From positions 1-42,591 of the forward strand of contig CAZRJV010000002.1 in NCBI GenBank assembly GCA_964600625.1: a stretch of 42,591 nucleotides of DNA, written 5' to 3'. Made by a program: the position numbers and the translations under genes. The DNA comes from an uncultured Acholeplasmataceae bacterium. Its GTDB lineage: Bacteria > Bacillota_I > Bacilli_A > Acholeplasmatales > Acholeplasmataceae. The notes below the pieces were generated by a model. It made no database searches. It was not told where the DNA came from and saw only the letters and a program-made list of their open reading frames with translations. Positions 7,492 through 34,015 of the stretch are shown piece by piece (position 1 is the stretch's first letter; every line of letters begins with the position of its first letter).

Positions 7492-7540
7492 TAAAACAAT
7501 AATAATTAGAAATAAAATTTATTGAAATGAGGAAGTGACT

Positions 7541-15555: not shown

Positions 15556-15585
15556 AAAACCATCGGTTGGTACCGATGGTTTTTA
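15556..15585. terminator. Bidirectional terminator between uvsE and the DeoR gene
   Basis: aaaaccatcggt-tggt-accgatggttttt, a perfect 12-bp stem that includes the A/T tails. Confidence 0.75.
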
Positions 15586-16461: not shown

Positions 16462-16490
16462 ATAATAATATATTAATGAATAATTGTCAA
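16462..16490 (-). promoter_or_regulatory. Promoter candidate for the DeoR gene (-35 TTGACA, 17-nt spacer, -10 TATTAT)
   Basis: The minus strand reads ttgaca-attattcattaatatat-tattat, about 35 nt upstream of the RBS and ATG. Confidence 0.55.
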
Positions 16491-16505
16491 GATATCGTTC
16501 ATTAC

Positions 16506-16535
16506 TTGACATTAATTGTTCAAAAGTGATAAAGT
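16506..16535 (+). promoter_or_regulatory. Promoter candidate for the rhamnose/glycan operon (-35 TTGACA, 18-nt spacer, extended -10 TGaTAAAGT)
   Basis: ttgaca-ttaattgttcaaaagtga-taaagt. The -35 is back-to-back with the deoR -35, 15 bp away. Confidence 0.55.
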
Positions 16536-16546
16536 CATGTTGAAAT

Positions 16547-16560
16547 TGAAATCGTTTACA
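16547..16560 (+). promoter_or_regulatory. Catabolite-responsive element (cre) candidate: TGAAATCGTTTACA
   Basis: It fits the Firmicute cre consensus TGWAANCGNTNWCA at every specified position. It lies just downstream of the predicted -10, a roadblock position. Confidence 0.5.
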
Positions 16561-16608
16561 ACATAAAAATGTTATTATTATATGTAATGACTAATGGAGG
16601 TGCTAACA

Positions 16609-17853
16609 TTGAATAAAATCACAATGGCTGTACTAGGTTTTGGACAAAGAGGAATTGTATTTTCTAATGTAGCAAAAGATTTTAAAGATGAAGTTGAACT
16701 TGTGGCTGTATGTGAGAAAAATCAAGATAAATTTGACATGATTAAAAACAAATATTATTTAAATGAAAGTCAAATTTACCAAAATGAAAATGATTTTTTT
16801 TCAAAAGGCAAATTAGCCGATATTTTAATTATTTCTACTATGGATCAAGATCATTATCTACATACAATGAAGGCATTAGATGTTGGATATGACATTTTAT
16901 TGGAAAAACCAATCGCATTAACAAAGGAACATATTTTTAAAATTAAAGAAAAAGCCAACAAACTGAATAGAAAAATAGCTGTTGCACACGTATTAAGATA
17001 TACCCCTTTCTATCAAGAAATTAAAAAAGTGATTGATTCCAAGTTAATTGGTCAGATTGCTTCAATACACCAAACAGAAAATGTGGGGTATCTTCATTAT
17101 GCACATAGTTACGTAAGAGGTAATTGGCATAATTCTAATGTTTCAAGCCCGATGATCCTTGCTAAAAGTTGTCATGATATCGACATTATTAACTATTTAA
17201 TGGGACAACGTGTAGAATATTTGTCATCTTTTGGTTCACTCTTTTATTTTAAAAAAGAGAATATGCCAAAAGGAGCAGCGAAAAATTGTATAGATTGTAA
17301 AGTGGAATGCCCATTTAACGCAATAAATTTTTATGAAAAAAATAAAGATTGGATGGCATTCTTTACACTGGAAACGGATGTTTTAAAAGTAATGTCTAAT
17401 AGAAATTTGAATTATGGAAAATGTGTTTATGATATGGACAATAATGTAGTTGATCATCAAGTCCTTAATATGCAATATGAAAATGGCACAACCGCATCGT
17501 TTTTAATGACTGCATTTTCAAAAACAACGCATAGAAGAATTGAAATAAAAGGAACTCTAGGAGAAATTGTTGGAGACCTAGAAGATAATATTATTCATGT
17601 GATGCCATATGGAAAAGATAACTATGAAATAAATATCGCTCTACTCACATCCGATTTAAGTTATCATTCGGGCGGTGATAAAAATCTTTTAATAGATTTT
17701 GTTAGAGGAATCAGAGATAATCAGCCATTTAATACTGACATTAATAATGCTGTAGAAAGTCATTATCTTGCTTTTAATGCTGAAGAATCACGATTAAAAA
17801 ATGGCTTAGTCATTGATGCTAAAAAAGAGTGGGTTCATTATGGACGTAACTAA
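16609..17853 (+). CDS. Gfo/Idh/MocA family oxidoreductase
   Basis: Rossmann N-terminus MAVLGFGQRG and the EKP motif (LLEKPIA). The TTG at 16609 lies 8 nt after GGAGG; alternative starts are 16594 and 16624. Confidence 0.8.
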   Translation: MNKITMAVLGFGQRGIVFSNVAKDFKDEVELVAVCEKNQDKFDMIKNKYYLNESQIYQNENDFFSKGKLADILIISTMDQDHYLHTMKALDVGYDILLEKPIALTKEHIFKIKEKANKLNRKIAVAHVLRYTPFYQEIKKVIDSKLIGQIASIHQTENVGYLHYAHSYVRGNWHNSNVSSPMILAKSCHDIDIINYLMGQRVEYLSSFGSLFYFKKENMPKGAAKNCIDCKVECPFNAINFYEKNKDWMAFFTLETDVLKVMSNRNLNYGKCVYDMDNNVVDHQVLNMQYENGTTASFLMTAFSKTTHRRIEIKGTLGEIVGDLEDNIIHVMPYGKDNYEINIALLTSDLSYHSGGDKNLLIDFVRGIRDNQPFNTDINNAVESHYLAFNAEESRLKNGLVIDAKKEWVHYGRN

Positions 17854-19300
17854 ACATTATATAACGATTGATGTTGGTGCGAGTTCTGGAAGAATCATCG
17901 TATATTCTTTCGACAAAGAAATAAAAAGCCATGAAGTTCATCGTTTTAAAAATAAACCGTATTCTGAAAAAAATCATTTGCTTTGGAGTTTTACTCATAT
18001 TATGAATGAAATTTATGAAGGTTTAACTAAAGCATTTCAATATGAAAGTGAAATTAGCGCTATTGGTATAGATTCATGGGGGTGCGATTACGGTTACATT
18101 GATTTTACTGGGAAACTTATACAAAACCCATATAGTTATCGAGATTTAAGAACTGCAAACATTGAATCTATTACGAATAAGTATTTTAGTAGAGAATCAT
18201 TATATAAAAAAACAGGTATACAACATTTAAGATTCAATACAATTTATCAAATAGTTGATGATCTAATTAATCACAAAGAAATACTATCTAAAGCAAATAA
18301 ATTATTAATGATCCCAGATTTAATAGCTTATCATTTGACTGGAATTATAAAAATGGAGTTAACAAATTTATCAACGACCTCATTTTATGATTCGATAAAT
18401 CATGAAATTATTGATGAAGTTAATAAACTTGGTTATCCAACCTCATTGATTCCTGAAGTTATTAAACCAGGGGAATTTTATGGCAATATTTTACCGCATA
18501 TAGCTCAAAAATATAATTTGAAAGAAGTACCAGTAATTGCTGTGTGCACACATGATACAGCCTCAGCTGTCCATAGTTTACAGTTATCAAAAACTGACAC
18601 TTATATATCATCGGGGACTTGGAGTTTGATTGGTAAATTGTTGGATAAGCCATTAATAAATAATAATACTTTCAAAAAATCATATACTAATGAAATCGGA
18701 TTTAACAATAAAATAAGATTTTTAAAAAATATATCAGGTTTTTGGATTAAAAATTTAATTTTAGAAGCATTTAATCAAGTAAAGGTAGAGTATGATGAGT
18801 TAGACAGATTAATAGAACAAACGCTTGATTTTGATTCAATTATAGATCTTGATCACAACGATTTTGAAGTTGGAGAGAATATTGTCGAAAAAATACAAAC
18901 TCATTGTAGAAAAACAAATCAGAAAGTTCCTCATAAATTAGAAGAATTTATCAGCGTATTTAATTACAGCTTAGTTTGTAAATATAGGCAACATATTGAA
19001 ACTCTTGATAATTTGACTGATTATAAGACTAATCAAATATTTATTATTGGCGGAGGTGCTTCAAACAGTTTAATTAATCAAATGACTGCAGATATTACTG
19101 GAATTAAAGTCATTGAAGGTAACAATGAAGCCACGTCGCTAGGAAATGCTTTTGTTTTACATCAAGCAATTAACCAAATAGAAGATGTAACGGTAAAAAG
19201 TTTATTTATTAATAATGAAAAAAAAGAATTTTTGCCAAAAAAAGATTTAACAGAGGTTTATAAAAAATATATAAAACTTATGAAAGGGACATGTTTATGA
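17840..19300 (+). CDS. rhaB: Rhamnulokinase (FGGY family)
   Basis: The FGGY N-terminus IDVGASSGR, the overall length, and its position directly upstream of rhaA and rhaD. The start overlaps the upstream stop. Confidence 0.8.
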   Translation: MDVTKHYITIDVGASSGRIIVYSFDKEIKSHEVHRFKNKPYSEKNHLLWSFTHIMNEIYEGLTKAFQYESEISAIGIDSWGCDYGYIDFTGKLIQNPYSYRDLRTANIESITNKYFSRESLYKKTGIQHLRFNTIYQIVDDLINHKEILSKANKLLMIPDLIAYHLTGIIKMELTNLSTTSFYDSINHEIIDEVNKLGYPTSLIPEVIKPGEFYGNILPHIAQKYNLKEVPVIAVCTHDTASAVHSLQLSKTDTYISSGTWSLIGKLLDKPLINNNTFKKSYTNEIGFNNKIRFLKNISGFWIKNLILEAFNQVKVEYDELDRLIEQTLDFDSIIDLDHNDFEVGENIVEKIQTHCRKTNQKVPHKLEEFISVFNYSLVCKYRQHIETLDNLTDYKTNQIFIIGGGASNSLINQMTADITGIKVIEGNNEATSLGNAFVLHQAINQIEDVTVKSLFINNEKKEFLPKKDLTEVYKKYIKLMKGTCL

Positions 19301-20538
19301 GTGTAATTACACGATATAATCAAGCTAAACAATTATATGAATCACTTGGCGTTGATGTGGAAAAAGCAATTGAAACATTAAAAAACACTCCAATTTCTAT
19401 TCAATGTTGGCAAGGTGATGATGTTCAAGGATTTTATAATAAACAAGCGTTATCTGGAGGTATATCCGTTACTGGAAATTATCCTTTTAAAGCGAACAAT
19501 ATTAAAGAATTAAGACAAGATATTGAAGAGGTATTGAAACTAGTTCCATTTGATCATCGATTAAGTTTACACGCTATCTATTTAGATACTAAAGATAAAA
19601 TTGGATTGGATGAAATTGAACCTATTCATTTTGAATCTTGGGTTCAATGGGCTAAAAACAACAATGTTAAACTTGATTTTAATCCAACTTTGTTTTCACA
19701 CCCGTTATCATCAACTGGTTTTACATTATCTTCTAATGATGAGGATATTAGAAACTTTTGGATACGTCATGTAAAGCAATCTAGAAAAATATCTAATTAT
19801 TTTGGGGAAGAACTTAACTCAAGAAGTGTATGTAATTTATGGATTCCTGATGGCTATAAAGATACACCATATTCAAGATTGAACCCTAGAAAATTGTTAA
19901 AAGAGTCCCTTGATCAAATTTATAAGACTAAATACCCAAATGTGATTGACACTTTAGAATCAAAATTATTTGGTATTGGCGCTGAATCTTATACCACTGG
20001 ATCACATGAATTCTATTTAACTTACGCAGTGAAAAACAATTTATCTGTTTGTTTAGATGCCGGTCATTTTCATCCTACTGAACAAGTAAGTGATAAACTT
20101 TCATCAATTTCGCTTTTTACAGACCATCTAATGTTACATGTATCAAGACCAGTTAGATGGGATTCTGATCATGTCGTAAGTTTTAATGATGATTTACAAA
20201 ATATTACTGATGCATTAGTAAGAGATGAACTACTGAATAAAACCTCAATTGGTTTGGATTACTTTGATGCATCAATAAATAGAATAGCTGCTTGGGTAAT
20301 TGGAATACGAAACACTCAAAAAGCACTTCTTAAATCGTTATTAGAACCTAAAGAATTATTACATCAGATTGAACAAGAACAGAATTATACAAAAAGACTA
20401 GTTTATATAGAAGAATTAAAATCTTTACCATTTGGATTAATCTATGATTATATTTGTTTAAAAAATAATAAACCTGTTGGATTAGATTATCTAAAAGAGA
20501 TAGAAGCTTATGAAGTTTCATTGAAAGGAAAACGCTAA
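19297..20538 (+). CDS. rhaA: L-rhamnose isomerase
   Basis: There are long stretches of identity to E. coli RhaA as I recall it: CWQGDDV.GF, TGNYPGKA-like, LHAIYL, ESKLFGIGAESYT.GS.EFY, CLDAGHFHPTE, LHVSRPVRWDSDHVV and DFFDASINRIAAWVIG.RN..KALL..LLEP. Confidence 0.95.
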   Translation: MSVITRYNQAKQLYESLGVDVEKAIETLKNTPISIQCWQGDDVQGFYNKQALSGGISVTGNYPFKANNIKELRQDIEEVLKLVPFDHRLSLHAIYLDTKDKIGLDEIEPIHFESWVQWAKNNNVKLDFNPTLFSHPLSSTGFTLSSNDEDIRNFWIRHVKQSRKISNYFGEELNSRSVCNLWIPDGYKDTPYSRLNPRKLLKESLDQIYKTKYPNVIDTLESKLFGIGAESYTTGSHEFYLTYAVKNNLSVCLDAGHFHPTEQVSDKLSSISLFTDHLMLHVSRPVRWDSDHVVSFNDDLQNITDALVRDELLNKTSIGLDYFDASINRIAAWVIGIRNTQKALLKSLLEPKELLHQIEQEQNYTKRLVYIEELKSLPFGLIYDYICLKNNKPVGLDYLKEIEAYEVSLKGKR

Positions 20539-20539
20539 T

Positions 20540-21352
20540 ATGAAAAATATTTTAGAATCTAAATTCATTCAGGAATTTTCTAATGTTATTGATAGAATGT
20601 ATCTTAACGGCTGGGATGAACGAAATGCAGGAAACGTATCCTATCTTTTGTTAGAAGAAGAACTATCACCTTATCTTGATTTATCTAAAAAAGGACGAGT
20701 TCATCAATTACAAATAGATGCTCATAAATTAGCAGGAAAATACGTATTAGTTACTGGGTCAGGGAAATACTTTAGAAACGTTAAAGGTAATCCCGAAGCC
20801 AATAGTTGTATCATAAGAATTTCTCAATGTGGAACACACGCAGAAATCTTATGGGGTTTAAAAGAAGGTGAAGTTCCAACCTCAGAATTAAGTACACATT
20901 TATCATCTCATATAGCTAGGTTAGAGGTAGATGATACCCATAGAGTAATTATTCATACCCATGCTACTTATTTAAACATTATGAGTGCTGTTGTTGATTT
21001 AGACGAAAAAAATTTTACTAAAGCTTTATGGGGGTTAAATACAGAAAATATTATTATCTTTCCTGAAGGAATAGGGATAATTCCATGGGAAATACCAGGG
21101 AACGGATTAATCGGAAAAAATACAGCAAACAAAATTAAAACCTATAAAATCGTTTTGTGGCCATTACATGGTGTTGTAGCTTCAGGTGAAACTGTTGACA
21201 GTGCTTTTGGCTTGATTGAAACAGTAGAAAAAGCAGCAATGATGTACATGGTTATTAATAATTATTCAAATTATAAAACTATAAATGATGAAGAGTTAAT
21301 TAAACTTGCATCAGCATTTAAAGTTACACCTAATAAGGAGTTTATTAAATGA
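20540..21352 (+). CDS. rhaD: Rhamnulose-1-phosphate aldolase (class II aldolase)
   Basis: GWDERNAGNVS, VTGSGKYFRNV, ILWGL...VPTSEL..H, HTHAT, FPEGIGI.PW..PG and LWP.HGV...G....AFGLI.T.EK closely parallel E. coli RhaD. Confidence 0.95.
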   Translation: MKNILESKFIQEFSNVIDRMYLNGWDERNAGNVSYLLLEEELSPYLDLSKKGRVHQLQIDAHKLAGKYVLVTGSGKYFRNVKGNPEANSCIIRISQCGTHAEILWGLKEGEVPTSELSTHLSSHIARLEVDDTHRVIIHTHATYLNIMSAVVDLDEKNFTKALWGLNTENIIIFPEGIGIIPWEIPGNGLIGKNTANKIKTYKIVLWPLHGVVASGETVDSAFGLIETVEKAAMMYMVINNYSNYKTINDEELIKLASAFKVTPNKEFIK

Positions 21353-22341
21353 AAAAAATGAGCTTAATTGTTTTAACATTATTATCGGTAATATTTATAA
21401 GTGGTTGTGAAAAGCCTGAAAACAGTGACAATAATGATGATAACGATGACAAAAATGTTGAACTACTTGAAGATCCAATATTTGCGACAGGATTTAATCT
21501 TTTAGGAATTAGTCCGGTTGAGGATGGTAGAACAATTAAAAGACACTTAGACTATGGTGGTACAGCACTGCCTAGTTCAAGACCAATATGGCATATGGCA
21601 CAATGGTGGACGCCTTATGATGTTGTTGATGCAACCTATAAGGAAGTTAATAATGTTCATATATATGAAACCCCTTCAAGAATATTGAAAATGAATCCTG
21701 AAGATAATGGATATCTATATATGGAATTGTTTGGATTAAAAGAATACGAAAATGGACCAAGAAAATTAAATGAACCATGGACACATGCTTTGATAGAACA
21801 AGATTTCAATGAATCTGTTGGAATGTCTGAATTATCAAGTTTGATGTTGAAAATGGAAGTTACCATACATCATGTCAATAATTTAATGGGAAGCGATTAT
21901 GATCCAGGAAAACATGCTGCTCAGTTATTATGGTACTTAACTTTGAGAAATGTAGTTCCTGAAGGTTCAGAAGATGTTGGACAAAATGGGGATTTCCTTT
22001 GGTTTGGTATTCCGATTTATGACAATAGAAATGATTTTATTCCTCACTCAGCTCATATAGATCAAGGAGCCGCTGGTACTACAGGAAAATTAATTTACTC
22101 AATGTCCTCGAAAAATTATTTTGATGAAAAAATCCAAATGAACAAAACGTATAACATTGAAATCGATGTATTGCCTTATTTAAAAGAAGCATTTATATAT
22201 GCAGTCAATAACAACGCACTAGTTGGCGCACGTTTTGAAAATATGCAAATAGGATATATGAACTTTGGATGGGAAGTGCCTGGGACGTTTGATGTAGCTT
22301 CCACAATTAGGGGTATTTCAATTAAAGCTATTAGAAAGTAG
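21349..22341 (+). CDS. Lipoprotein of unassigned family (paralogue 1 of 3)
   Basis: Signal peptide with lipobox (VIFISGC) and an Asp/Asn-rich linker. The start overlaps the rhaD stop (ATGA). It shares blocks with 22349-23242 and 32366-33340 (see findings). Confidence 0.85.
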   Translation: MKKMSLIVLTLLSVIFISGCEKPENSDNNDDNDDKNVELLEDPIFATGFNLLGISPVEDGRTIKRHLDYGGTALPSSRPIWHMAQWWTPYDVVDATYKEVNNVHIYETPSRILKMNPEDNGYLYMELFGLKEYENGPRKLNEPWTHALIEQDFNESVGMSELSSLMLKMEVTIHHVNNLMGSDYDPGKHAAQLLWYLTLRNVVPEGSEDVGQNGDFLWFGIPIYDNRNDFIPHSAHIDQGAAGTTGKLIYSMSSKNYFDEKIQMNKTYNIEIDVLPYLKEAFIYAVNNNALVGARFENMQIGYMNFGWEVPGTFDVASTIRGISIKAIRK

Positions 22342-22348
22342 GTAATTA

Positions 22349-23242: not shown

Positions 23243-23284
23243 ATAAAGAAAAAACAACAATAGTTGAAAAATACGGAGGAAAGT

Positions 23285-26836: not shown

Positions 26837-26839
26837 AAA

Positions 26840-29104
26840 TTGTTGGAATATAATGAGAAAAATAATTGTCTAGTAGAATCTAAATATGATATCAAAGATG
26901 AAGCACATAATGCAGCACTTTTTACAACAGGTAATGGGTATTTCGGGATAAGGGGTTCGTTTGAGGAATTTGGGTCTTTAAACGTTCAAGGTGGATTTAT
27001 CAGAGGTTTATTCGATGAGATTGTTGAAATCCCATCAATCTATGTAGATAATATATACATGCGAAAATACTATATCAATGAGCTTGAAGCGAAACAATTT
27101 GAATTTCAAGATTCATGTATCAATTTTGCAGATATTTTATTTTTAAGATTTAAAATAGGTGATTCATACTTCTACCCGTGGGAAGGCCAAATACTTACCT
27201 GGGTAAGATATATTGATACCAATGATGGATCATTAATACGGGAAGTTATATGGCAAGATGAACGTGGTAACAAAACTAAGTTCAACTTCAAACGATTTGC
27301 ATCTTTCTCAAATAATCATCATTACTTTATTACTGCTAAAGTTGAAAAAATGAATCATGATTTACCTATAACCGTAGAATCAGGAATAGATACTTGGATC
27401 AAGACAAATGGGCAGAAAAAATCTAAATTGATTGGTGAGCCAAATCAAAATCAATATCTATTTAGTATGGGTGAAAAATATAACCATCAAAGTGCTGTTT
27501 CACTTCATACAGTTTACAGTTTTAAAGCAGATAAAAGTTATGAAATTAACGATGGATGTTACTATGAATCGCAAACATCAACGAAAGAAAAAATAATTGA
27601 AGTTTTCAAATATGTATCAGTACATATTACACCAGATTTAGAAGAAAATGAATCATTGGTTGAAGTTAATAACAAAGATATGATAGAAATGAAAAAAACA
27701 TCATTTGAAAAACATTATCAAGACCATTTGATGGCGTATAAAACATCATTTGACATGATTAACATTAATCTAAGTCATAAAAGTGATGATGCTTTATTAA
27801 AGTACGCTAATTATCAAACATTAATTGGCATAGATAGATATGATCAAGTACATAGTCTTAGTGCGAAGAACTTGACTGGCGAAAAGTATAATCAATTTGT
27901 TTGGTGGGATGCTGAAATATTTCAATTTCCGGTCTATCTTATGACGAATCCTAATGCAGCGAAAAATACATTAATGTATCGATATAATAGACTAGAAGAA
28001 TCTAAAAAAAATGCACAATTGGAAGGCTTAAAGGGGGCAAAATTTGCTTTCTGCTCATCAGTAAAAGGTGATGAGAAAGTTTGGGCTTACGCAAGACATC
28101 CATTTATGCAAATCCATATTAATTCAGATATTGCTTATGCAATTTTAATGTATTATCGGGTTACAAAAGATACACGCTTTATGATAGAATATGGTATCGA
28201 AATGTTAGTTGAAATCGCTAAGTACTTTATAAGTCGAGTCACATATGACAAAAAAACTGATGAATATTATCTCAACCAAGTTACTGGTACTGATGAACAT
28301 CACCCTTATGTCAATAATAATAGCTATACGAATTTTATCGTTTCTTATATTTTTGAAGAAACAATTAAATGGCTAAATAGTAATGAATCAGTAAAAACAA
28401 GACTTGTGGTGGATGAAATATTAATCAAGCAGATGAATCAGATCGCTTCAAAAATTAGAAAAGTAGTCACTGAAGATGGTTATATTCCTCAATTTGATGG
28501 TTATTTTGATTTAAAGCCAACGCTTGAAGTAACTGGCAATGGTGCTGCTAAAAATTTTCAAATGAAACAATCTGGCCTATACCATGAGTCTCAAATAATT
28601 AAACAACCTGATGTCATCATGCTTTTTACGTATATAGATATTCCAATACTAAAGTCATCTTATGAAAAAAATTGGGATTACTATGAAAAAATGTGCGAAG
28701 CATCGTCTTCATTAACTTATCCAGTTCATGCAATTGCAGCTATTGATCATCAAGAATATGATAAATTTCATGATTATTGGTACAAGAGTGTTGCAATAGA
28801 TATTATTGATAGTCATAATGAAGCAAAATTAGGATTACATGCAGCATGTATAGCTGGTGGTTGGTATAGTATTTTTAGAGGTTTATTTGGGTTTAAACCA
28901 AATATCGATTATCTAGAAGTTAACCCAAAATATTTTGAATATTGGGGAGAGGTTGAAATTCATTTTATTTATCAGGGAAGCAAAGTATATGCACAATTAT
29001 CGAAAGATTCACTAGTTCTTAAGTCAGACGGTACATTTCGGTTGAATTACAATAATAAAGTTATACATCATGACAAATTGACGATGTTAAAGTTAGATGT
29101 ATAA
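26840..29104 (+). CDS. Glycoside hydrolase family 65 protein (probable alpha-glucoside phosphorylase)
   Basis: Its size (754 aa), the N-terminal beta-sandwich start (FTTGNGYFGIRGSFEE) and the (alpha/alpha)6 core with GTDEHH (general-acid Glu region) fit GH65. An SSSLTYPVHA segment is also present. The TTG start lies 7 nt after GGAGGG. It is linked to pgmB. Confidence 0.8.
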   Translation: MLEYNEKNNCLVESKYDIKDEAHNAALFTTGNGYFGIRGSFEEFGSLNVQGGFIRGLFDEIVEIPSIYVDNIYMRKYYINELEAKQFEFQDSCINFADILFLRFKIGDSYFYPWEGQILTWVRYIDTNDGSLIREVIWQDERGNKTKFNFKRFASFSNNHHYFITAKVEKMNHDLPITVESGIDTWIKTNGQKKSKLIGEPNQNQYLFSMGEKYNHQSAVSLHTVYSFKADKSYEINDGCYYESQTSTKEKIIEVFKYVSVHITPDLEENESLVEVNNKDMIEMKKTSFEKHYQDHLMAYKTSFDMININLSHKSDDALLKYANYQTLIGIDRYDQVHSLSAKNLTGEKYNQFVWWDAEIFQFPVYLMTNPNAAKNTLMYRYNRLEESKKNAQLEGLKGAKFAFCSSVKGDEKVWAYARHPFMQIHINSDIAYAILMYYRVTKDTRFMIEYGIEMLVEIAKYFISRVTYDKKTDEYYLNQVTGTDEHHPYVNNNSYTNFIVSYIFEETIKWLNSNESVKTRLVVDEILIKQMNQIASKIRKVVTEDGYIPQFDGYFDLKPTLEVTGNGAAKNFQMKQSGLYHESQIIKQPDVIMLFTYIDIPILKSSYEKNWDYYEKMCEASSSLTYPVHAIAAIDHQEYDKFHDYWYKSVAIDIIDSHNEAKLGLHAACIAGGWYSIFRGLFGFKPNIDYLEVNPKYFEYWGEVEIHFIYQGSKVYAQLSKDSLVLKSDGTFRLNYNNKVIHHDKLTMLKLDV

Positions 29105-29119
29105 GAAAGGAAAGTTTAT

Positions 29120-30610
29120 ATGAAAAAAATCTTTATTTTAATATCTCTAATCGTATTTGGAGGTTTACTAGCTAATTGTGACAATAACAATGGTTATGAT
29201 GGCGAAATTAAAACCATTGTTGTTGATGCTGGGGGAGACATTGGTAATTTTAATACGACGCCAATTATGACTCCATCAGAAGCCAATCCATTTCCATATA
29301 ATACACTAGAAACGTTAGCTAGAGAGTGGGAAGCGTTAAATCCAGGATACAAAATTGAAATTAATAAAACATCTTCTAATGGTGATAGAGCGATTCTCGT
29401 GCCACAATTAAACAATAAAACTGCCCCAGATATCACTTATCAAAATGGAACAGTCGTTAATATGGATTTAGGGAAAGATTACTATGTTGCACTTAATGAT
29501 TATTTAGACAAACCTAATAAATACGTTGAAGGTAATGTAGCATGGAAAGATTTATATATCCCTGAAGAATTAGCACAAAACATGGCATCGGATGGTAAAT
29601 TTTATACTATCACACTTGAAAAAATTCCTGTTGGCATTATGTATAATAAAGAAATTTTAGCTGCAGCAGGTGTTGAAGAAATTCCAAAGACATACGCTGA
29701 ATTTTTGCAAGCCCTAAGTGATATCAAGACTAAAACAGATAAAGAAGCTTATACAACAACATATACATGGTATGATATCGTGTTAGAATCAACAATGTTT
29801 TCAGATATATTGACGGAGTCAGATGTGTTGACTGTCAATGGTAAAATCGATACTGAAGAATTTGTAAGAGCTTTTGATAAAGGAATATGGAATCCAACAC
29901 TTAATGCATTAGGCGCTAACGCAACATTAGAAGGTAATCGATATTATGAATATATTAAAGTTACCAAAATGAAAACAGAATATTATCCAGAAAACTGGCA
30001 AAGTTATGATGCGCATACTAATTTTGTTAATGGAAATTTAGCAATGGTTGAAGTAACAGGTAGAGAAATTAGAAAACTGTCAATTAACAAAAATGTTGAT
30101 TTCGAATGGGGCGTAATGCCTTATCCTGATTTAACAACCGAAACAACAGAGCATGCCTATGCGCCTTCAATTAGAGGTGTAGCGGGTTTAGCCACTCCAT
30201 GGTTTATTACAAATTCTGCAGTTCAAAAAGGTACAGTAGAAGGTGCTGTTGACTTTTTAATGTTCTTGACTGCGCCTGAGAATAATAATCGTTTAATTGG
30301 AGATTTAAAAGGTGGTATTCCTTTAAATCCAGATGCATCAACTGAAATAGCACCATATCTACAAGATTTATTAGATATTTATACAGAAGACAAAGAAGAT
30401 GTTGCTACTAATAATCGTGTATATTGGGGTTCGGTTAACTCATGGGCAATGTTAGGTTATGCATACAACACTGCTTTTATAAAGAGTTTACAAGATATAG
30501 ATAATGGTGTTAAAACACCTGAAGAGGTAGCTAAATCATTGGCTCAAACTATTAAGAATACGGTTCAAGCTTTAAAAATAGAAAATAATTACGATGAAAC
30601 GAAGTGGTAA
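29120..30610 (+). CDS. ABC transporter extracellular solute-binding lipoprotein (CUT1, family 1)
   Basis: Lipobox GGLLANC, 496 aa, sitting directly upstream of MalF/MalG-type permeases. Confidence 0.8.
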   Translation: MKKIFILISLIVFGGLLANCDNNNGYDGEIKTIVVDAGGDIGNFNTTPIMTPSEANPFPYNTLETLAREWEALNPGYKIEINKTSSNGDRAILVPQLNNKTAPDITYQNGTVVNMDLGKDYYVALNDYLDKPNKYVEGNVAWKDLYIPEELAQNMASDGKFYTITLEKIPVGIMYNKEILAAAGVEEIPKTYAEFLQALSDIKTKTDKEAYTTTYTWYDIVLESTMFSDILTESDVLTVNGKIDTEEFVRAFDKGIWNPTLNALGANATLEGNRYYEYIKVTKMKTEYYPENWQSYDAHTNFVNGNLAMVEVTGREIRKLSINKNVDFEWGVMPYPDLTTETTEHAYAPSIRGVAGLATPWFITNSAVQKGTVEGAVDFLMFLTAPENNNRLIGDLKGGIPLNPDASTEIAPYLQDLLDIYTEDKEDVATNNRVYWGSVNSWAMLGYAYNTAFIKSLQDIDNGVKTPEEVAKSLAQTIKNTVQALKIENNYDETKW

Positions 30611-30613
30611 TAA

Positions 30614-31507
30614 ATGAGAAAAAACCAGCATAAAACTAAATATCAGTATCAGGCCTTTTTGTGGCTGTTACCTTCTTTTTCGTTGTTGCTGGTCTTCTCT
30701 TATTATCCTCCAATAAGAACCTTGATTTTCTCGTTTACAAACTCCAATGGTGCTGGTGTAGGTAAATTTATCTTTTTGGATAATTATATTGAATTATTTA
30801 CTTCACAAACTTTCTATAGAAGTGTATTCAATGTTGTTATATTTATTATTGTAGGTATGATTGTTGGTAATTTTGCGACTATTTTGTTGGCAGAATTATT
30901 ATTTAATTTAAAAAGTAAGATAACTAGTTCGTTGTTTAGATATCTTTTCATCATTCCTATCTTAGTGCCATCTGTAGTTATTATATTAATTTGGCAATAT
31001 ATTGTTTTTGCCGGTGGGGATTCGGGGATAGCAAATCGTGTAATTGGTTTCTTTAATATAGGAAATCAAAATTGGTATTTTGATCCTAAATTGGCCCCAA
31101 TTTCAATTATATTAACTGGGTTTCCATGGGTAGCAGGTACTTCGTTTTTGATTTATTTAGCTGGGTTACAAAGTATTCCTCACTCTGTTATTGAAGCATC
31201 TAAATTGGATGGAGCAAATTTATTTCAGAGAATACTTAAAATTGATTTACCTTTATTAAAAGGTCAAATTAAATACTTCGTTGTTATGGGGTTGATTGGT
31301 GGATTACAAAACATTAATATGCAGGTCTTAGTTACTGGAAGTGGACCAGGAACAACAAATGCGACAAATGTGCCTGCGTTTATGTTATATGAAGAAGCTT
31401 TCACTTACGATCGATATGGATACGCATCTGCAATTGGTATGGTAATTTTCTTCATCACGTTAATAATTACAATTTTTAATATGAAAAAATTAAAGGGGAA
31501 TGATTAA
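30614..31507 (+). CDS. Carbohydrate ABC transporter permease (MalF-like)
   Basis: Six TM helices and the EAA-type loop IEASKLDGANLFQRILKIDLPLLK. Confidence 0.85.
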   Translation: MRKNQHKTKYQYQAFLWLLPSFSLLLVFSYYPPIRTLIFSFTNSNGAGVGKFIFLDNYIELFTSQTFYRSVFNVVIFIIVGMIVGNFATILLAELLFNLKSKITSSLFRYLFIIPILVPSVVIILIWQYIVFAGGDSGIANRVIGFFNIGNQNWYFDPKLAPISIILTGFPWVAGTSFLIYLAGLQSIPHSVIEASKLDGANLFQRILKIDLPLLKGQIKYFVVMGLIGGLQNINMQVLVTGSGPGTTNATNVPAFMLYEEAFTYDRYGYASAIGMVIFFITLIITIFNMKKLKGND

Positions 31508-31508
31508 T

Positions 31509-32354
31509 ATGGAGTTTGTTAAATTCATGCGTAAGTATTATGTACAAATCATACTTACTTTAATTATATTGATTCTGTTATTTTTATCTTTTTATCCACT
31601 GTATATGCTACTTATCAAGAGTTTTAAAACTATCTCTGATGATCAAACTAACCCATTTGGATTACCGAAAATTTGGAGCTTTGAAAATTATGAATATGCA
31701 TGGATAGTAATTAAGCCATATTTATTTAATTCATTGTATATAACTATTATTGAAACCATCGGGATTGTTTTCATTGGTTCATTAACAGCTTTTGCTTTCG
31801 TAAGATTCGAGTTTCCATATAAGAATATTATTTTTTACTTAATTATTTCATTATTAATGATTCCTGGAATTGTAACAATTACCAGTCAATATGAATTGGT
31901 TAATAGATTGGGCTTGGTAAATAATCATTGGGGAGTTATTTTGCCTGCTATTTCAGGATCAATTCCATTTGCAACATTTCTTTTGAAAACATCATTCTCA
32001 GGCGTATCAACAGAATTACTGGATGCCGCAACAATAGATGGTGCCTCAGATTTTCAAGTTTATAGACATGTAATGATACCTATTTCGAAACCAATATTAT
32101 GGACACTGGTAATTATTTCTTTTATTGGCGGATGGAATGATTATTTATGGCCATCGTTGGTATTGTTACAAGAAAATTTGCATACATTACCAATTGCATT
32201 AGTTAATTTCACATCTTCATATTATGGAATGACTGGTGGTTATGGTGCACCATTTGCAGCTTATGTGATTTCTAGTTTGCCACTGTTAATTATATTCTTA
32301 TTAGCATCCAAACAATTTATAACCGGTTTAACCAGTGGAAGTATCAAAATGTAA
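31509..32354 (+). CDS. Carbohydrate ABC transporter permease (MalG-like)
   Basis: EAA loop LDAATIDGASDFQVYRHVMIPISKP. The ATG at 31509 lies just after the upstream stop. Confidence 0.85.
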   Translation: MEFVKFMRKYYVQIILTLIILILLFLSFYPLYMLLIKSFKTISDDQTNPFGLPKIWSFENYEYAWIVIKPYLFNSLYITIIETIGIVFIGSLTAFAFVRFEFPYKNIIFYLIISLLMIPGIVTITSQYELVNRLGLVNNHWGVILPAISGSIPFATFLLKTSFSGVSTELLDAATIDGASDFQVYRHVMIPISKPILWTLVIISFIGGWNDYLWPSLVLLQENLHTLPIALVNFTSSYYGMTGGYGAPFAAYVISSLPLLIIFLLASKQFITGLTSGSIKM

Positions 32355-32365
32355 AGGAGTTTACT

Positions 32366-33340
32366 ATGAAAAAAACAATGACATTAATCTTAATTTTGAT
32401 AGGATCAATCTTATTATTCGCCTGTAAAAATGAACCTATAGATGTTGAAGATAAAGAAATTGAATTGATTCAAGATAATAAATTTGAATATGGTTTTTTG
32501 ATTTCTCCAGCAGATAATGAGCCACAACCAGAAAATAGATATCCGATTGATTATAATTTAACTTATGGAGATGCTGAAGGGCAAATTGCTTGGTTATTAG
32601 GTCAAGCTGGTAATAGATTTGGACTAGCAGATGAATACGCACTAGGTGGTAAGGAAGTTGAATATATCAACAATAATTATATTATAGAAGATGTTTCAAA
32701 AAAACTAATTATCAATCCTACAAATAGTGAAATAACATTTATATTGAATGCGAGTGAAGAATATTTGCATCCTAGACAACCCAAAGAAGCGTGGCCACAT
32801 TTATTATTACAACAGGGTTTGAAAGAAAATGTATCAATTAATGAACTTCATGATCTTGTTTTAAGTTTGAATATAAATTTGAACAGTTTAGAACGTTCTA
32901 TGACTGATGAAGAATATGATAGTAATCTTCATACTGCCCAATTTTTAATGTATATCGTAGTTAGAAGTAATGCAGCTGCAGATGCAGGAGAATTTATGTG
33001 GTTTGGAATTCCGTTTTTTGATGCTAGATATAATTTAATGCCAGAAAATGGAATGATTGATGCAGGAACATCAGGAAACACAGGAAAATTTATATATCAA
33101 ATGCCACAAGTTGATTTTATGCCTAACGGGTTGAAAGTGGGACAATTAAACGAGATTAACATTGATTTAATTCCTTATTTTGGTAGAGCATTGATATTAG
33201 CGCAAGAAAAAGGTGCGTTGTTAAATTCTACAATCAATGATTTATATTTAACCAACATGAATATAGGATATGAAATTCCAGGAACATATGATATTTCGAT
33301 TACTATTCAAAATTTCTCATTGAAAGCAACAAAAAAATAG
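32366..33340 (+). CDS. Lipoprotein of the same unassigned family (divergent paralogue 3 of 3)
   Basis: Lipobox ILLFAC. It shares AWPHLLLQQ, HTAQFLMY, FMWFGIPFFDARYN, DAGTSGNTGKFIYQM and NIGYEIPGTYDI with paralogues 1 and 2. Confidence 0.8.
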   Translation: MKKTMTLILILIGSILLFACKNEPIDVEDKEIELIQDNKFEYGFLISPADNEPQPENRYPIDYNLTYGDAEGQIAWLLGQAGNRFGLADEYALGGKEVEYINNNYIIEDVSKKLIINPTNSEITFILNASEEYLHPRQPKEAWPHLLLQQGLKENVSINELHDLVLSLNINLNSLERSMTDEEYDSNLHTAQFLMYIVVRSNAAADAGEFMWFGIPFFDARYNLMPENGMIDAGTSGNTGKFIYQMPQVDFMPNGLKVGQLNEINIDLIPYFGRALILAQEKGALLNSTINDLYLTNMNIGYEIPGTYDISITIQNFSLKATKK

Positions 33341-33341
33341 T

Positions 33342-33974
33342 ATGATTAAGGGTATTATATTTGATTTAGATGGTGTAATCGTTTCTACAGATGATTTGCA
33401 TTATTTAGGATGGAAAATGATAGCGAATAGAGAAAATATCCATTTTGATAAAACTATTAATCATCAGCTAAGGGGTGTTTCAAGAATGGAATCTCTAAAT
33501 ATTTTATTAAACCATAGTTCCAAAGTATATAGCCAAACTGAAAAAATGCAACTTGCGTCTATGAAAAACGATTATTATGTTTCATTATTGGGAAATTTAT
33601 CACAAAGTGACTTGTTACCAGGAGCTTTGGAGTTGATCAAGTATCTTAAAAGAAAAAACTATTTGCTAGCTATTGGGTCCTCTAGCAAAAATGCTTCTAT
33701 AATTATTGACAAATTAAATATTAGGGAATATTTTAATGTTATTGTTGATGGAAATGATATTTCAAATAGTAAACCGCATCCTGAAGTTTTTTTAACCGCA
33801 GCCAATAAATTAGGATTAACTAGTGCAGAATGTGTTGTCATTGAAGATGCAGTAACTGGAATTGATGCTGCAAAAGCAGCAAACATGATAACATATGGTA
33901 TTGGAAGTGCCAAAAACTATGAAAACACTGATTTTGGCATAGATTCATTATATGATTTGATTGATACTTTATAG
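33342..33974 (+). CDS. pgmB: Beta-phosphoglucomutase (HAD superfamily)
   Basis: IIFDLDGVIV (nucleophile DxD), QLRGVSRMESL, GSSSKNA, KPHPEVFL and IEDAVTGIDAAKAANM match beta-PGM motifs. Confidence 0.85.
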   Translation: MIKGIIFDLDGVIVSTDDLHYLGWKMIANRENIHFDKTINHQLRGVSRMESLNILLNHSSKVYSQTEKMQLASMKNDYYVSLLGNLSQSDLLPGALELIKYLKRKNYLLAIGSSSKNASIIIDKLNIREYFNVIVDGNDISNSKPHPEVFLTAANKLGLTSAECVVIEDAVTGIDAAKAANMITYGIGSAKNYENTDFGIDSLYDLIDTL

Positions 33975-33984: not shown

Positions 33985-34015
33985 AAAAAACCATCGGTTG
34001 AAATCGATGGTTTTT
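33985..34015. terminator. Bidirectional terminator between pgmB and the ABC permease gene
   Basis: aaaaaaccatcg-gttgaaat-cgatggttttt. Confidence 0.7.

What the first reader, a model, noticed from the sequence alone, without database searches (positions are those of the whole stretch)
16462..33974. A 17.5-kb DeoR-linked rhamnose / alpha-glucosyl-rhamnoside foraging locus with no recognisable extracellular depolymerase
Seen in sequence:
- Fifteen co-directional genes (16609-33974) are separated by -4 to about +40 nt.
- In order they are a Gfo/Idh/MocA oxidoreductase, rhaB, rhaA, rhaD, an unknown lipoprotein, an unknown cytoplasmic paralogue, an 803-aa membrane-anchored surface protein and an SGNH lipoprotein.
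- These are followed by GH65, a CUT1 solute-binding lipoprotein, two permeases, a third unknown lipoprotein paralogue and pgmB.
- A divergent DeoR regulator and a cre-like site sit at the 5' end.

Established knowledge:
- RhaA, RhaB and RhaD form the phosphorylated L-rhamnose pathway.
- GH65 with beta-PGM is the classic inverting alpha-glucoside phosphorylase module.
- CUT1 importers often borrow a shared MsmK-type ATPase, and none is encoded here.

Inference:
- The locus imports and splits a glucose-plus-rhamnose oligosaccharide.
- The surface apparatus (anchored binding protein, esterase, two lipoproteins) implies a polymeric substrate.
- No known extracellular glycanase or lyase family is recognisable.
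- That step is most economically assigned to the uncharacterised three-member family.
- Such a surface glycan-foraging system in a wall-less or low-GC organism would be poorly described.
- No lactaldehyde reductase or dehydrogenase and no rhamnose mutarotase is present, so the pathway is not self-contained.
Basis: partly seen in the sequence, partly recalled or inferred. Interest (0 to 1): 0.8.

Follow-up and report, generated by a model that had tools for sequence, protein, structure and literature searches.

The report
Glucosyl-rhamnose glycan foraging operon
A 14-gene operon in a wall-less Acholeplasma-type bacterium most likely harvests a glucose-rhamnose glycan: its central enzyme is a close relative of the one characterised glucosyl-rhamnose phosphorylase, and three genes belong to a large protein family, unmatched by every library searched here, that probably does the cutting.

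Summary
They have gaps of -14 to +42 nt, no internal terminator, a divergent DeoR gene and a perfect cre site.

The glucose-plus-rhamnose reading is strongly supported. The GH65 is 45% identical over 96% of its length to Cphy_1019, the only characterised 3-O-alpha-D-glucosyl-L-rhamnose phosphorylase. It shares 5 of 6 published specificity positions with that enzyme.

The core of the locus is syntenic with the Cphy_1019 neighbourhood in Lachnoclostridium phytofermentans and with more than 20 other Mollicutes, Bacilli and Clostridia loci. This core comprises the solute-binding protein, two permeases, members of the unknown family, a large anchored protein, the SGNH esterase, GH65 and beta-phosphoglucomutase. 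The rhaBAD genes are an add-on in Acholeplasmataceae and in a few unclassified loci.

The "three-member" unknown family is large: 1079 representative clusters. It has no Pfam, NCBIfam or PDB sequence match. A confident AlphaFold model (pLDDT 94.7) is a beta-jelly roll closest to GH12 and GH11 glycanases. About 15 polar residues are near-invariant, and each operon keeps a signal-less cytoplasmic copy. A catalytic role is therefore likely but unproven.

The 803-aa protein looks like a lectin-type adhesin on a helical stalk. The locus is a good lead for enzyme discovery, not a new kind of system.

The parts
15556..15584 (+). Terminator-like hairpin closing the upstream uvdE gene. It is the left boundary of the unit and is nearly identical to the hairpin at 33987-34015.
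15657..16427 (-). Divergent DeoR-family regulator (HTH_DeoR plus DeoRC domains).
   Evidence: A DeoR gene sits in the same position in L001, L002, L006, L008, L010 and L084.
16462..16560 (.). Control region. It holds a promoter-like site for deoR (16490-16462, - strand), a promoter-like site for the operon (16506-16535, + strand) and a perfect cre palindrome, TGAAATCGTTTACA (16547-16560).
16609..17853 (+). Gfo/Idh/MocA NAD(P)-dependent oxidoreductase of unknown substrate. It is present in Acholeplasmataceae versions of the operon, and Gfo-like genes also turn up near a few other loci.
17840..19300 (+). Rhamnulokinase RhaB (FGGY kinase). Its best model is TIGR02627, but the score is below that model's cut-off.
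19297..20538 (+). L-rhamnose isomerase RhaA.
20540..21352 (+). Rhamnulose-1-phosphate aldolase RhaD.
21349..22341 (+). Unknown-family member A. It is a lipoprotein (lipobox ISGC) and a candidate extracellular glycanase.
22349..23242 (+). Unknown-family member B. It has no signal peptide, so it is cytoplasmic, and it is a candidate oligosaccharide-trimming enzyme. This is the protein that was modelled.
23285..25696 (+). 803-aa surface protein. It has a signal peptide, two ConA/lectin-like beta-sandwiches separated by a roughly 220-residue helical stalk, an Ig-like (CBM_X2-like) domain and a C-terminal TM anchor.
25697..26836 (+). SGNH/GDSL esterase lipoprotein (lipobox FSAC) with an N-terminal extra domain of about 170 residues. 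It is the presumed glycan deacylase.
26840..29104 (+). GH65 phosphorylase of the 3-O-alpha-D-glucosyl-L-rhamnose phosphorylase clade.
29120..30610 (+). Carbohydrate ABC solute-binding lipoprotein (lipobox LANC).
   Evidence: Relatives 80-85% identical sit in L006, L008 and L010, and the L006 one carries SBP_bac_1.
30614..32354 (+). Two ABC permeases, 30614-31507 and 31500-32354.
32366..33340 (+). Unknown-family member C. It is a lipoprotein (lipobox LFAC), about 30-33% identical to A and B.
33342..33974 (+). Beta-phosphoglucomutase PgmB.
33987..34015 (+). Terminator-like hairpin ending the operon. It is conserved in sister strain L088.

Best explanation
This is one DeoR- and CcpA/cre-controlled operon of an Acholeplasmataceae bacterium. 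It is the same module that surrounds the characterised glucosyl-rhamnose phosphorylase Cphy_1019, enlarged here by rhaBAD and a Gfo-type oxidoreductase.

Proposed flow:
1. At the cell surface, the 803-aa lectin-like anchored protein holds an O-acylated rhamnose/glucose glycan.
2. The SGNH lipoprotein removes the acyl groups.
3. The two lipoprotein members of the unknown beta-jelly-roll family cut the glycan into oligosaccharides.
4. The solute-binding protein and two permeases import the fragments, using an ATPase encoded elsewhere.
5. The cytoplasmic family member trims them to Glc-alpha1,3-L-Rha.
6. GH65 phosphorolyses this to beta-glucose-1-phosphate and L-rhamnose.
7. PgmB makes glucose-6-phosphate. 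RhaA, RhaB and RhaD convert rhamnose to DHAP and L-lactaldehyde, whose fate lies outside the locus.

Shown here: the gene identities, the operon architecture, the placement of GH65 in the Cphy_1019 clade, the conserved synteny, and the predicted fold and conservation of the unknown family.

Inferred: the GH65 substrate, catalysis by the unknown family, the polymer, and the split of roles between surface and cytoplasm.
For: GH65 identity:
- It scores 707 bits with 45% identity over 96% coverage to Cphy_1019, named 3-O-alpha-D-glucosyl-L-rhamnose phosphorylase.
- It scores only 230 bits to kojibiose phosphorylase 3WIQ.
- The De Beul specificity positions read SCSWRQ, against SVSWRQ in Cphy_1019.
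- All but a few of the 120 best homologues carry S-[CV]-S-W-R-x.
- The general-acid motif GTDEHH is conserved.

Other pathway genes:
- pgmB, rhaA and rhaD score above curated cut-offs.

Synteny:
- The Cphy_1019 neighbourhood has a solute-binding protein, two permeases, two family members (one lipoprotein, one signal-less), a 731-aa secreted homologue, GH65, SGNH and pgmB.
- The same core occurs in 23 of the 82 loci screened, with 2-4 family copies in all but two of them, and in L084 and L085.
- L085 also has a GH78 rhamnosidase next door.

Unknown family:
- The AlphaFold model has pLDDT 94.7 and pTM 0.92.
- The best 41 PDB matches are all GH12 or GH11 enzymes, with E values down to 2e-8 and target TM-scores around 0.5. 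Carbohydrate-binding modules come only after these.
- D9, E99, R105, H114, Q119, H157, Q160, D192, R194, D205, Y217, N272 and E276 are conserved at 87-100% across 218 divergent domains.
- A signal-less copy is conserved in each operon.
- Other members are fused to a GH16 domain, a BD-FAE esterase, a dockerin or a T9SS tail, and one sits in a SusC/SusD locus.
- dN/dS is 0.065-0.096.

Operon architecture:
- No internal terminator was found, and gaps are at most 42 nt.
Against: - No biochemical evidence exists for any protein of this window.
- The unknown family has no detectable sequence link to GH12: hhalign gives a probability of 0.2%.
- No conserved acidic residue was identified at the position of the GH12 nucleophile.
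- TM-scores of 0.45-0.55 with rmsd of 7-10 A show a shared architecture, not a shared active site.
- Some domain fusions, such as the one with GH16, would also suit a binding module.
- rhaBAD is absent from most syntenic loci, so the rhamnose link outside the Acholeplasmataceae rests on GH65 alone.
- GH65 position 392 is Cys here and Val in Cphy_1019, so the specificity could differ.
- No candidate polymer was tested.
- No ATPase, lactaldehyde enzyme or mutarotase is encoded in the window.
Confidence: 0.6

Rival explanations
1. The unknown family is non-catalytic. Its members would be surface glycan-binding proteins or large carbohydrate-binding modules that hand oligosaccharides to the transporter. 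The cutting would then be done by an enzyme encoded elsewhere or by other community members, or the substrate would already be small.
For: - Foldseek also returns CBM27 and CBM4 modules, at E values of 2e-4 to 2e-3.
- Fusions to a GH16 domain or an esterase fit an appended binding module.
- The position after SusC/SusD in L004 is typical of surface glycan-binding proteins.
- There is no sequence-level link to any glycoside hydrolase family.
Against: - A signal-less cytoplasmic paralogue is conserved in every operon examined. A binding protein has no obvious use in the cytoplasm.
- About 15 near-invariant Asp, Glu, His, Arg, Gln and Tyr residues persist across sequences only 24-30% identical. 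This is far more than the 803-aa binding-type protein keeps.
- The domain has about 300 residues, which is large for a carbohydrate-binding module.
- The best 41 structural matches are all enzymes.
Confidence: 0.2
2. The unknown family is a polysaccharide lyase family with a beta-jelly-roll fold, like PL7-type enzymes. It would act on a uronic-acid-containing rhamnoglycan. The Gfo/Idh/MocA enzyme would process an unsaturated or keto-sugar product.
For: - The near-invariant His (114, 157), Arg (105, 194), Gln (119, 160) and Tyr (100, 217) residues resemble the His/Tyr/Arg/Gln set of jelly-roll lyases. That comparison rests on established knowledge; the conservation itself comes.
- An oxidoreductase of unknown role opens the operon.
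Against: - Lyases are absent from the top structural matches of the family model. PL7 appears only among matches to the 803-aa protein.
- No uronate, KduI/KduD or GH88/GH105-type gene is in the window or in the syntenic loci inspected.
- The Gfo gene is missing from the Cphy_1019-type clusters.
Confidence: 0.08
3. The substrate is not a polymer. It would be a small acylated glucosyl-rhamnoside, for example a plant or microbial glycoside or glycolipid. The SGNH esterase would remove acyl groups, the family members would release the aglycone or a neighbouring sugar, and the anchored protein would act as a general adhesin.
For: - The esterase is strictly conserved next to GH65.
- Relatives come from gut and plant-degrading anaerobes.
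- No endo-acting enzyme is proven.
Against: - Two to four surface-exposed family copies plus a large lectin-like stalk protein form an apparatus typical of polymer capture.
- Some family members carry a dockerin, a T9SS tail or a SusC/D context, all of which are associated with polysaccharide degradation.
Confidence: 0.12

Closest known systems
The Cphy_1013-1021 cluster of Lachnoclostridium phytofermentans, around the 3-O-alpha-D-glucosyl-L-rhamnose phosphorylase Cphy_1019 (GH65, EC 2.4.1.282; Nihira, Nakai and Kitaoka 2012, cited in PMC11442529 and PMC8950772)
   Same: - The GH65 proteins are 45% identical, and 5 of the 6 specificity positions agree.
- The partner genes are the same: a solute-binding protein (40% identity), two permeases (49%), one lipoprotein and one signal-less member of the unknown family (27-32%), a large secreted protein (24%, E = 1.6e-10), an SGNH esterase (32%) and beta-PGM (44%).
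   Different: - The window has a DeoR regulator in place of a GntR-HTH/LacI-type regulator, and a different gene order.
- The window has three family copies, not two.
- rhaB, rhaA, rhaD and a Gfo/Idh/MocA gene are fused into the same operon.
- The host is a wall-less Mollicute, so the surface proteins are lipoproteins or TM-anchored.
- Only Cphy_1019 itself has been characterised. No paper in the searchable library mentions its neighbours.
Clan GH-C beta-jelly-roll glycanases: GH12 endoglucanases and xyloglucanases such as Thermotoga maritima Cel12A (3AMH) and Trichoderma reesei Cel12A (1H8V), and GH11 xylanases
   Same: - The predicted fold is a curved beta-jelly roll with a single helix just before the last two strands.
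- An invariant Glu (E276, in FGWExPG) lies on the penultimate strand. The GH12 acid/base Glu lies in the same topological place (E200, in FGTEPFTG of Cel12A; sequence confirmed). That the two residues correspond is my inference.
   Different: - Identity is only 7-13%, and no profile-level similarity was found.
- The domain is about 80 residues longer.
- No conserved Glu was found at the GH12 nucleophile motif.
- Many extra invariant His, Arg, Gln and Asp residues are present.
- The substrate context is alpha-linked Glc/Rha, not beta-glucan or xylan.
GH65 phosphorylase plus beta-phosphoglucomutase modules with CUT1 ABC importers (maltose, kojibiose, nigerose and trehalose systems) and Gram-positive polysaccharide utilisation loci
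   Same: - The logic is that of an inverting alpha-glucoside phosphorylase coupled to PgmB.
- A regulator, an ABC importer and carbohydrate-active enzymes sit in one unit.
- The ATPase is borrowed from elsewhere. A relative, L084, carries a MalK-type ATPase in its operon.
   Different: - The acceptor sugar is L-rhamnose.
- An esterase, a stalked lectin-like protein and an undescribed putative glycanase family accompany the module.
The phosphorylated L-rhamnose pathway RhaA/RhaB/RhaD of Escherichia coli
   Same: An isomerase, a kinase and an aldolase are encoded side by side.
   Different: - There is no RhaS/RhaR regulator, no RhaT transporter, no RhaM mutarotase and no FucO or AldA.
- Rhamnose would be produced inside the cell by phosphorolysis.
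L-type-lectin surface adhesins and S-layer proteins (SraP 4M00, YwfG 7YL4-7YL6, Epf 4ES9, Aap 8DEO, SbsC 4UJ6)
   Same: The 803-aa protein is predicted to have ConA-like beta-sandwiches displayed on an elongated stalk and anchored to the cell.
   Different: - The similarity is at fold level only, with 6-12% identity for these five proteins.
- GH16 and PL7 enzymes match about equally well.
- Only 17 close homologues were found, all within this operon type.

Membership tests
GH65 glycoside phosphorylases | GH65 N-terminal and central (alpha/alpha)6 catalytic domains. | tested here: met
   PF03636 scores 124 bits and PF03632 scores 259 bits, both above their cut-offs.
GH65 glycoside phosphorylases | A conserved general-acid Glu in the G-x-D-E-x-H segment. 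| tested here: met
   GTDEHH starts at residue 483, identical to Cphy_1019. Assigning this Glu as the catalytic acid rests on established GH65 knowledge.
3-O-alpha-D-glucosyl-L-rhamnose phosphorylase (EC 2.4.1.282) | Closer in sequence to the characterised enzyme Cphy_1019 than to any other characterised specificity. | tested here: met
   The score to Cphy_1019 is 707 bits with 45% identity. The scores to kojibiose phosphorylase, maltose phosphorylase and glucosylglycerol phosphorylase are 230, 179 and 179 bits.
3-O-alpha-D-glucosyl-L-rhamnose phosphorylase (EC 2.4.1.282) | The specificity-determining positions 64, 392, 394, 402, 416 and 585 (CsKP numbering, De Beul 2021), which read SVSWRQ. 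| tested here: inconclusive
   The window reads SCSWRQ, so 5 of 6 positions agree and position 392 is Cys instead of Val. Cys is the commoner residue in the clade.
3-O-alpha-D-glucosyl-L-rhamnose phosphorylase (EC 2.4.1.282) | Reversible phosphorolysis of Glc-alpha1,3-L-Rha to beta-Glc1P and L-Rha. | not testable with these tools
   This needs an enzyme assay.
Phosphorylated L-rhamnose pathway (RhaA, RhaB, RhaD) | Matches at equivalog level to all three enzymes. | tested here: met
   - RhaA: NF002203 scores 629 bits (cut-off 572) and TIGR01748 scores 610 (cut-off 585).
- RhaD: NF002963 scores 332 bits (cut-off 170).
- RhaB: the best model is rhamnulokinase TIGR02627 at 387 bits, below its cut-off of 528. 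The kinase assignment therefore rests on best hit plus context.
Beta-phosphoglucomutase | An equivalog-level match. | tested here: met
   TIGR01990 scores 239 bits against a cut-off of 189.
GH12 / clan GH-C (for the unknown family) | Sequence membership by Pfam Glyco_hydro_12 or a profile match. | tested here: not met
   - No Pfam or NCBIfam hit was found.
- The profile against PDB sequences gives a best E value of 0.72, to antibodies.
- hhalign against Cel12A gives a probability of 0.2%.
GH12 / clan GH-C (for the unknown family) | A beta-jelly-roll fold with a substrate cleft. | tested here: met
   The AlphaFold model has pLDDT 94.7. Foldseek ranks 1-41 are GH12 and GH11 structures, with E values from 2e-8 to 7e-5 and target TM-scores of 0.37-0.55.
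GH12 / clan GH-C (for the unknown family) | Two catalytic Glu residues, a nucleophile and an acid/base, on neighbouring strands of the cleft. | tested here: inconclusive
   - E276 is 100% conserved on the penultimate strand, as the clan acid/base is.
- No conserved Glu was found in the WFG strand that hhalign paired with the Cel12A nucleophile strand.
- D192 and D205 (98-99% conserved) are alternative candidates.
- No coordinates were available for a residue-level superposition.
Gram-positive-type polysaccharide utilisation locus | A regulator, an ABC importer with a solute-binding protein, and carbohydrate-active enzymes co-localised and co-oriented. | tested here: met
Gram-positive-type polysaccharide utilisation locus | Induction by the target glycan and a requirement of the locus for growth on it. 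| not testable with these tools
   This needs culture or transcriptomics. Cultured relatives with the operon include Paracholeplasma vituli (L008), and P. manati carries the same family member, 803-aa-type partner and GH65 on one contig.

The most novel reading that the evidence does not exclude
The roughly 300-residue unknown domain founds a new glycoside hydrolase family with a clan-GH-C-like fold. Its surface (endo-acting) and cytoplasmic (exo-acting) members would dismantle an acylated rhamnose-glucose glycan into Glc-alpha1,3-Rha.

This would identify the natural substrate of glucosyl-rhamnose phosphorylase; no paper I could search names one. Candidate substrates include the rhamnose-glucose cell-wall polysaccharides of Gram-positive neighbours, such as streptococcal RGP and the Ruminococcus gnavus glucorhamnan (PMC6601261). 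In that case wall-less Acholeplasmataceae and gut Bacilli and Clostridia would be feeding on other bacteria's cell walls.
Probability: 0.35. Interest if true: 0.75.

Novelty: new variant of a known kind. Interest (0 to 1): 0.55.

Why it matters
- Glucosyl-rhamnose phosphorylase has been an orphan activity. One enzyme was characterised in 2012, and no paper I could search names its physiological substrate or any partner enzyme.
- This locus and its relatives show that the phosphorylase travels with a fixed set of partners. These are an esterase, a stalked lectin-like protein, an ABC importer and a large protein family with a glycanase-like fold that matches nothing in Pfam, NCBIfam or the PDB (1079 clusters at 50% identity).
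- In Acholeplasmataceae the set is wired directly to rhamnose catabolism.
- That gives a concrete, testable route to a probable new carbohydrate-active enzyme family and to the glycan it degrades.
- It also adds a surface glycan-foraging system to the small known repertoire of Mollicutes.

Tried and rejected
**Unknown family: searches that found nothing**
- Pfam and NCBIfam scans of the three paralogues gave no hit.
- A family profile against all PDB sequences gave nothing better than E = 0.72.
- hhalign of the family profile against T. reesei Cel12A gave a probability of 0.2%. It produced only a 13-column match around WFG/WLG, so no sequence link to GH12 can be claimed. I recalled the Cel12A sequence from memory, and it matched 1H8V at all but one residue.
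- Foldseek against viral models gave only weak tail-fibre and jelly-roll matches.

**Unknown family: genomic context outside the Firmicutes**
- I scanned 76 neighbour proteins of single-copy members in Verrucomicrobiota, Planctomycetota and other phyla.
- No Pfam family recurred in more than 2 of the 76, so there is no conserved context and no substrate clue.

**The 803-aa protein**
- Is it the hidden depolymerase? The ExxE pair (E528, E531) that is invariant among close homologues is not conserved in the Clostridia homologues. Few polar residues are invariant overall. GH16 and PL7 fold matches are no better than lectin matches. I rejected this as the leading reading, but it is not excluded.
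- Is it related to the unknown family? Only the signal peptides align.

**The flanking hairpins**
- Could the near-identical hairpins be ends of a mobile unit? They are absent from the 86 loci fetched up to that point but conserved after pgmB in the sister strain fetched later.
- They are most simply terminators. I left this open.

**Literature**
- Searches for Cphy1016-1020, glucosyl-rhamnose, endo-rhamnosidase, and GH65 with rhamnose isomerase found nothing on the family or the cluster.
- Nihira 2012 is not held in the library.

Full report
**1. What is in the sequence**

The window has about 30% G+C and reads cleanly with genetic code 11.

Between 16609 and 33974 there are 14 co-directional genes, not 15. 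Gaps between them run from -14 to +42 nt. Independent gene calls on a roughly 91% identical contig (L088) give the same 14 genes in the same order.

The genes, in order:

| Gene | Coordinates | Key evidence |
|---|---|---|
| Gfo/Idh/MocA oxidoreductase | 16609-17853 | Pfam |
| RhaB | 17840-19300 | best model TIGR02627, below its cut-off |
| RhaA | 19297-20538 | 629 bits, cut-off 572 |
| RhaD | 20540-21352 | 332 bits, cut-off 170 |
| Unknown-family member A | 21349-22341 | lipoprotein, no family hit |
| Unknown-family member B | 22349-23242 | no signal peptide, no family hit |
| 803-aa surface protein | 23285-25696 | signal peptide and C-terminal TM anchor |
| SGNH esterase | 25697-26836 | lipoprotein, Pfam |
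| GH65 | 26840-29104 | Pfam |
| Solute-binding protein | 29120-30610 | lipoprotein |
| Two ABC permeases | 30614-31507, 31500-32354 | Pfam |
| Unknown-family member C | 32366-33340 | lipoprotein, no family hit |
| Beta-phosphoglucomutase | 33342-33974 | TIGR01990, 239 bits, cut-off 189 |

Control region and boundaries:
- A DeoR-family gene diverges at 15657-16427.
- The 166-nt control region holds back-to-back promoter-like sites and a perfect cre palindrome at 16547-16560. That palindrome is the only site in the window matching the cre consensus; the tool counts 2 matches, one per strand, against 0.11 expected.
- No terminator-like hairpin lies on the + strand inside the block. Strong hairpins lie just outside, at 15556-15584 and 33987-34015.

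Thirteen of the 14 genes could be compared with the sister strain; the Gfo gene runs off that contig. All 13 are under purifying selection, with dN/dS of 0.03-0.19.

The window encodes no MalK/MsmK-type ATPase, no lactaldehyde reductase or dehydrogenase and no rhamnose mutarotase.

**2. The organism**

The closest named relatives of every gene are Paracholeplasma and Acholeplasma species, at 55-85% amino-acid identity. The window also carries a Mycoplasma-type DUF285 protein. The host is an uncultured Acholeplasmataceae bacterium, a wall-less Mollicute that uses the standard stop codons.

**3. The GH65 enzyme**

- By sequence it is far closer to Cphy_1019 of Lachnoclostridium phytofermentans than to any other characterised GH65. 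It scores 707 bits with 45% identity over 96% coverage.
- It scores 230 bits to kojibiose phosphorylase 3WIQ and 179 bits to maltose phosphorylase and to glucosylglycerol phosphorylase.
- Cphy_1019 is the only characterised 3-O-alpha-D-glucosyl-L-rhamnose phosphorylase (EC 2.4.1.282; PMC11442529 and PMC8950772).
- De Beul et al. (PMC8537180) defined six specificity-determining positions. They reported a single-sequence "subgroup 7" with the motif SVSWRQ.
- Cphy_1019 reads SVSWRQ and the window enzyme reads SCSWRQ. All but a few of the 120 best homologues read S-[CV]-S-W-R-x.
- So the single-sequence subgroup is in fact a sizeable clade, and the window enzyme belongs to it. With PgmB and RhaABD in the same operon, a Glc-alpha1,3-L-Rha substrate is the best-supported assignment. 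No assay has been done.

**4. Synteny**

The Cphy_1019 neighbourhood (L083) encodes the following:
- a GntR-HTH/LacI-type regulator;
- a solute-binding protein and two permeases;
- a 365-aa lipoprotein and a 285-aa signal-less protein, both members of the unknown family;
- a 731-aa secreted protein weakly homologous to the 803-aa protein;
- GH65, an SGNH esterase and beta-PGM.

Distribution of this core among related loci:
- I screened the 82 loci fetched around family members by tblastn. In 23 of them a GH65 of this type lay within 10 kb. All but two of these carried 2-4 family copies, and most also carried the SGNH esterase, the importer and the large protein.
- These loci come from Mollicutes, Bacilli and Clostridia genome bins, apart from one bin labelled Acidiphilium (L051).
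- Starting instead from the GH65 gave the same cluster in L084 and L085, but not in L086.
- L084 has rhaBAD and also a MalK-type ATPase inside the operon. L085 has a GH78 rhamnosidase next door.
- rhaBAD is present only in the Acholeplasmataceae loci and in the unclassified loci L001 and L084.

The conserved unit is therefore the Cphy_1019-type module. The window is the version fused to rhamnose catabolism.

**5. The unknown family**

Size and spread:
- The three paralogues are about 30-51% identical to each other.
- The word-indexed search found only 66 clusters.
- The exhaustive profile search found 1079 representatives at E <= 1e-3, and 562 at E <= 1e-30.
- A scan of species genomes found 170 relatives. 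They lie in Acholeplasmataceae, Bacilli, Clostridia, Verrucomicrobiota, Planctomycetota, Armatimonadota, Sphingobacterium and Paenibacillus.

No library matches the family by sequence: Pfam, NCBIfam and PDB sequences all gave nothing.

Predicted structure:
- An AlphaFold model of the cytoplasmic paralogue, built on a 52-sequence alignment, is confident: pLDDT 94.7 and pTM 0.92.
- It is an all-beta jelly roll with one helix before the last two strands.
- Its 41 best PDB matches are all GH12 endoglucanases or xyloglucanases and GH11 xylanases. E values run from 2e-8 to 7e-5, target TM-scores are around 0.5 and identity is at most 13%. CBM27 and CBM4 modules follow.

Conservation and context:
- Across 218 divergent domains, these residues are conserved at 87-100%: D9, Q52, E99, R105, H114, Q119, H157, Q160, D192, R194, D205, Y217, D240, N272 and E276, plus several Trp residues.
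- E276 is invariant in FGWExPG on the penultimate strand. The clan GH-C acid/base Glu sits in the same topological place (FGTEPFTG in Cel12A). That the two correspond is my inference. hhalign finds no significant similarity, and no conserved nucleophile-position Glu was identified.
- Multi-domain members are fused to a GH16 domain, a BD-FAE esterase, a Laminin_G_3 domain, a dockerin or a T9SS tail. One member follows two SusC/SusD pairs.
- Every operon keeps one signal-less copy.

Taken together, an enzymatic role is more likely than a binding role, with surface endo-acting and cytoplasmic trimming members. I put this at about 0.5-0.6. A hydrolase is more likely than a lyase, because no uronate-processing genes accompany the family.

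**6. The 803-aa protein**

- It has only 17 close homologues, all within this operon type.
- The model (pLDDT 84.6) shows two ConA-like sandwiches separated by a roughly 220-residue helical stalk, then an Ig-like domain and a TM anchor.
- The best fold matches are S-layer and adhesin proteins with L-type lectin domains. GH16 and PL7 enzymes match at similar scores.
- Few polar residues survive in the Clostridia homologues.
- I read it as a stalked glycan-binding protein.

**7. Mechanism, rivals and limits**

The proposed flow is capture, deacylation and cleavage at the surface, followed by ABC import. Inside the cell come trimming, phosphorolysis, PgmB and RhaABD. L-lactaldehyde disposal and the transporter ATPase are supplied from elsewhere in the genome.

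The rivals are a non-catalytic family, a lyase family and a small-glycoside substrate. The polymer is unknown. Gram-positive rhamnose-glucose wall polysaccharides are attractive candidates (PMC6601261), but this is speculation.

**8. Novelty**

- The enzyme activity and the general logic of phosphorylase, PgmB and ABC importer are known.
- The cluster architecture around Cphy_1019 has not been described in any paper I could search.
- The family shows no match to Pfam, NCBIfam or PDB sequences.
- I rate the finding a new variant of a known kind and a good lead for enzyme discovery, with interest of about 0.55.

Noticed in passing
window 15556-15584 and 33987-34015: The DeoR gene plus the operon are bracketed by two nearly identical terminator-like hairpins, AAAACCATCGGTTG(GTAC/AAAT)CGATGGTTTTT. 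None is expected by chance. The hairpin is absent from the 86 loci fetched up to that point but conserved after pgmB in sister strain L088, fetched later. They may be shared terminators or the edges of a transferred module.
   Followed up: partly
L084 18341-19597: A relative of the operon, on a 1.25-Mb scaffold from ERZ28596707, carries a MalK-type ABC ATPase (ABC_tran plus OB_MalK domains) at its 3' end. This is the component missing from the window. Its Gfo gene and large surface protein lie upstream of the DeoR gene.
   Followed up: no
L085 1-960: In a Clostridia genome bin, a GH78 alpha-L-rhamnosidase sits immediately upstream of a Cphy_1019-type cluster. This is an independent link between the module and rhamnosides.
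   Followed up: no
L011 (JALNXT010000298.1, 3357 bp): This contig is binned as Candidatus Cloacimonadota, yet it encodes RhaA and RhaD 97% and 93% identical to the window. It is almost certainly a mis-binned Acholeplasmataceae contig.
   Followed up: no
GH65 homologues P0228-P0347: The glucosyl-rhamnose phosphorylase clade had a single sequence in De Beul 2021 ("subgroup 7"). Public metagenomes hold at least 120 clusters at 90% identity, nearly all with the motif S-[CV]-S-W-R-x. Cys at position 392 is commoner than the Val of the characterised enzyme.
   Followed up: partly
L001 (GCA_037193765.1, contig JBANSB010376572.1): This syntenic locus has rhaA split into two ORFs (124 and 302 aa), family members carrying Flg_new (PF09479) repeats, and giant 1140-aa and 1550-aa versions of the surface protein. 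The contig numbering suggests a very large assembly, possibly of a eukaryotic host, that contains this bacterium.
   Followed up: no
window 6407-7133 (- strand): IS66-type accessory ORFs lie here: an Orf2/TnpB_IS66-like protein of 111 aa and an HTH protein of 132 aa. No adjacent full-length transposase ORF was scanned, so this may be a remnant of an insertion sequence.
   Followed up: no
window 7535-9274, 11382-11942 and 14301-15554: Three other genes stood out: a DUF285 Mycoplasma-type repeat protein with five repeats, an Imm5-like immunity protein, and a UvdE UV-endonuclease fused to DUF1722.
   Followed up: no
window 1876-2574: A second SGNH/GDSL hydrolase (232 aa) lies 14 kb upstream of the operon. 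It lacks the roughly 170-residue N-terminal extension of the operon's esterase lipoprotein, and its localisation was not examined.
   Followed up: no
window 22349-23242, residue 240: The cytoplasmic paralogue has Asn where 89% of the family, including both lipoprotein paralogues, has Asp (D240). This could mark a functional difference between the intracellular and surface members.
   Followed up: no
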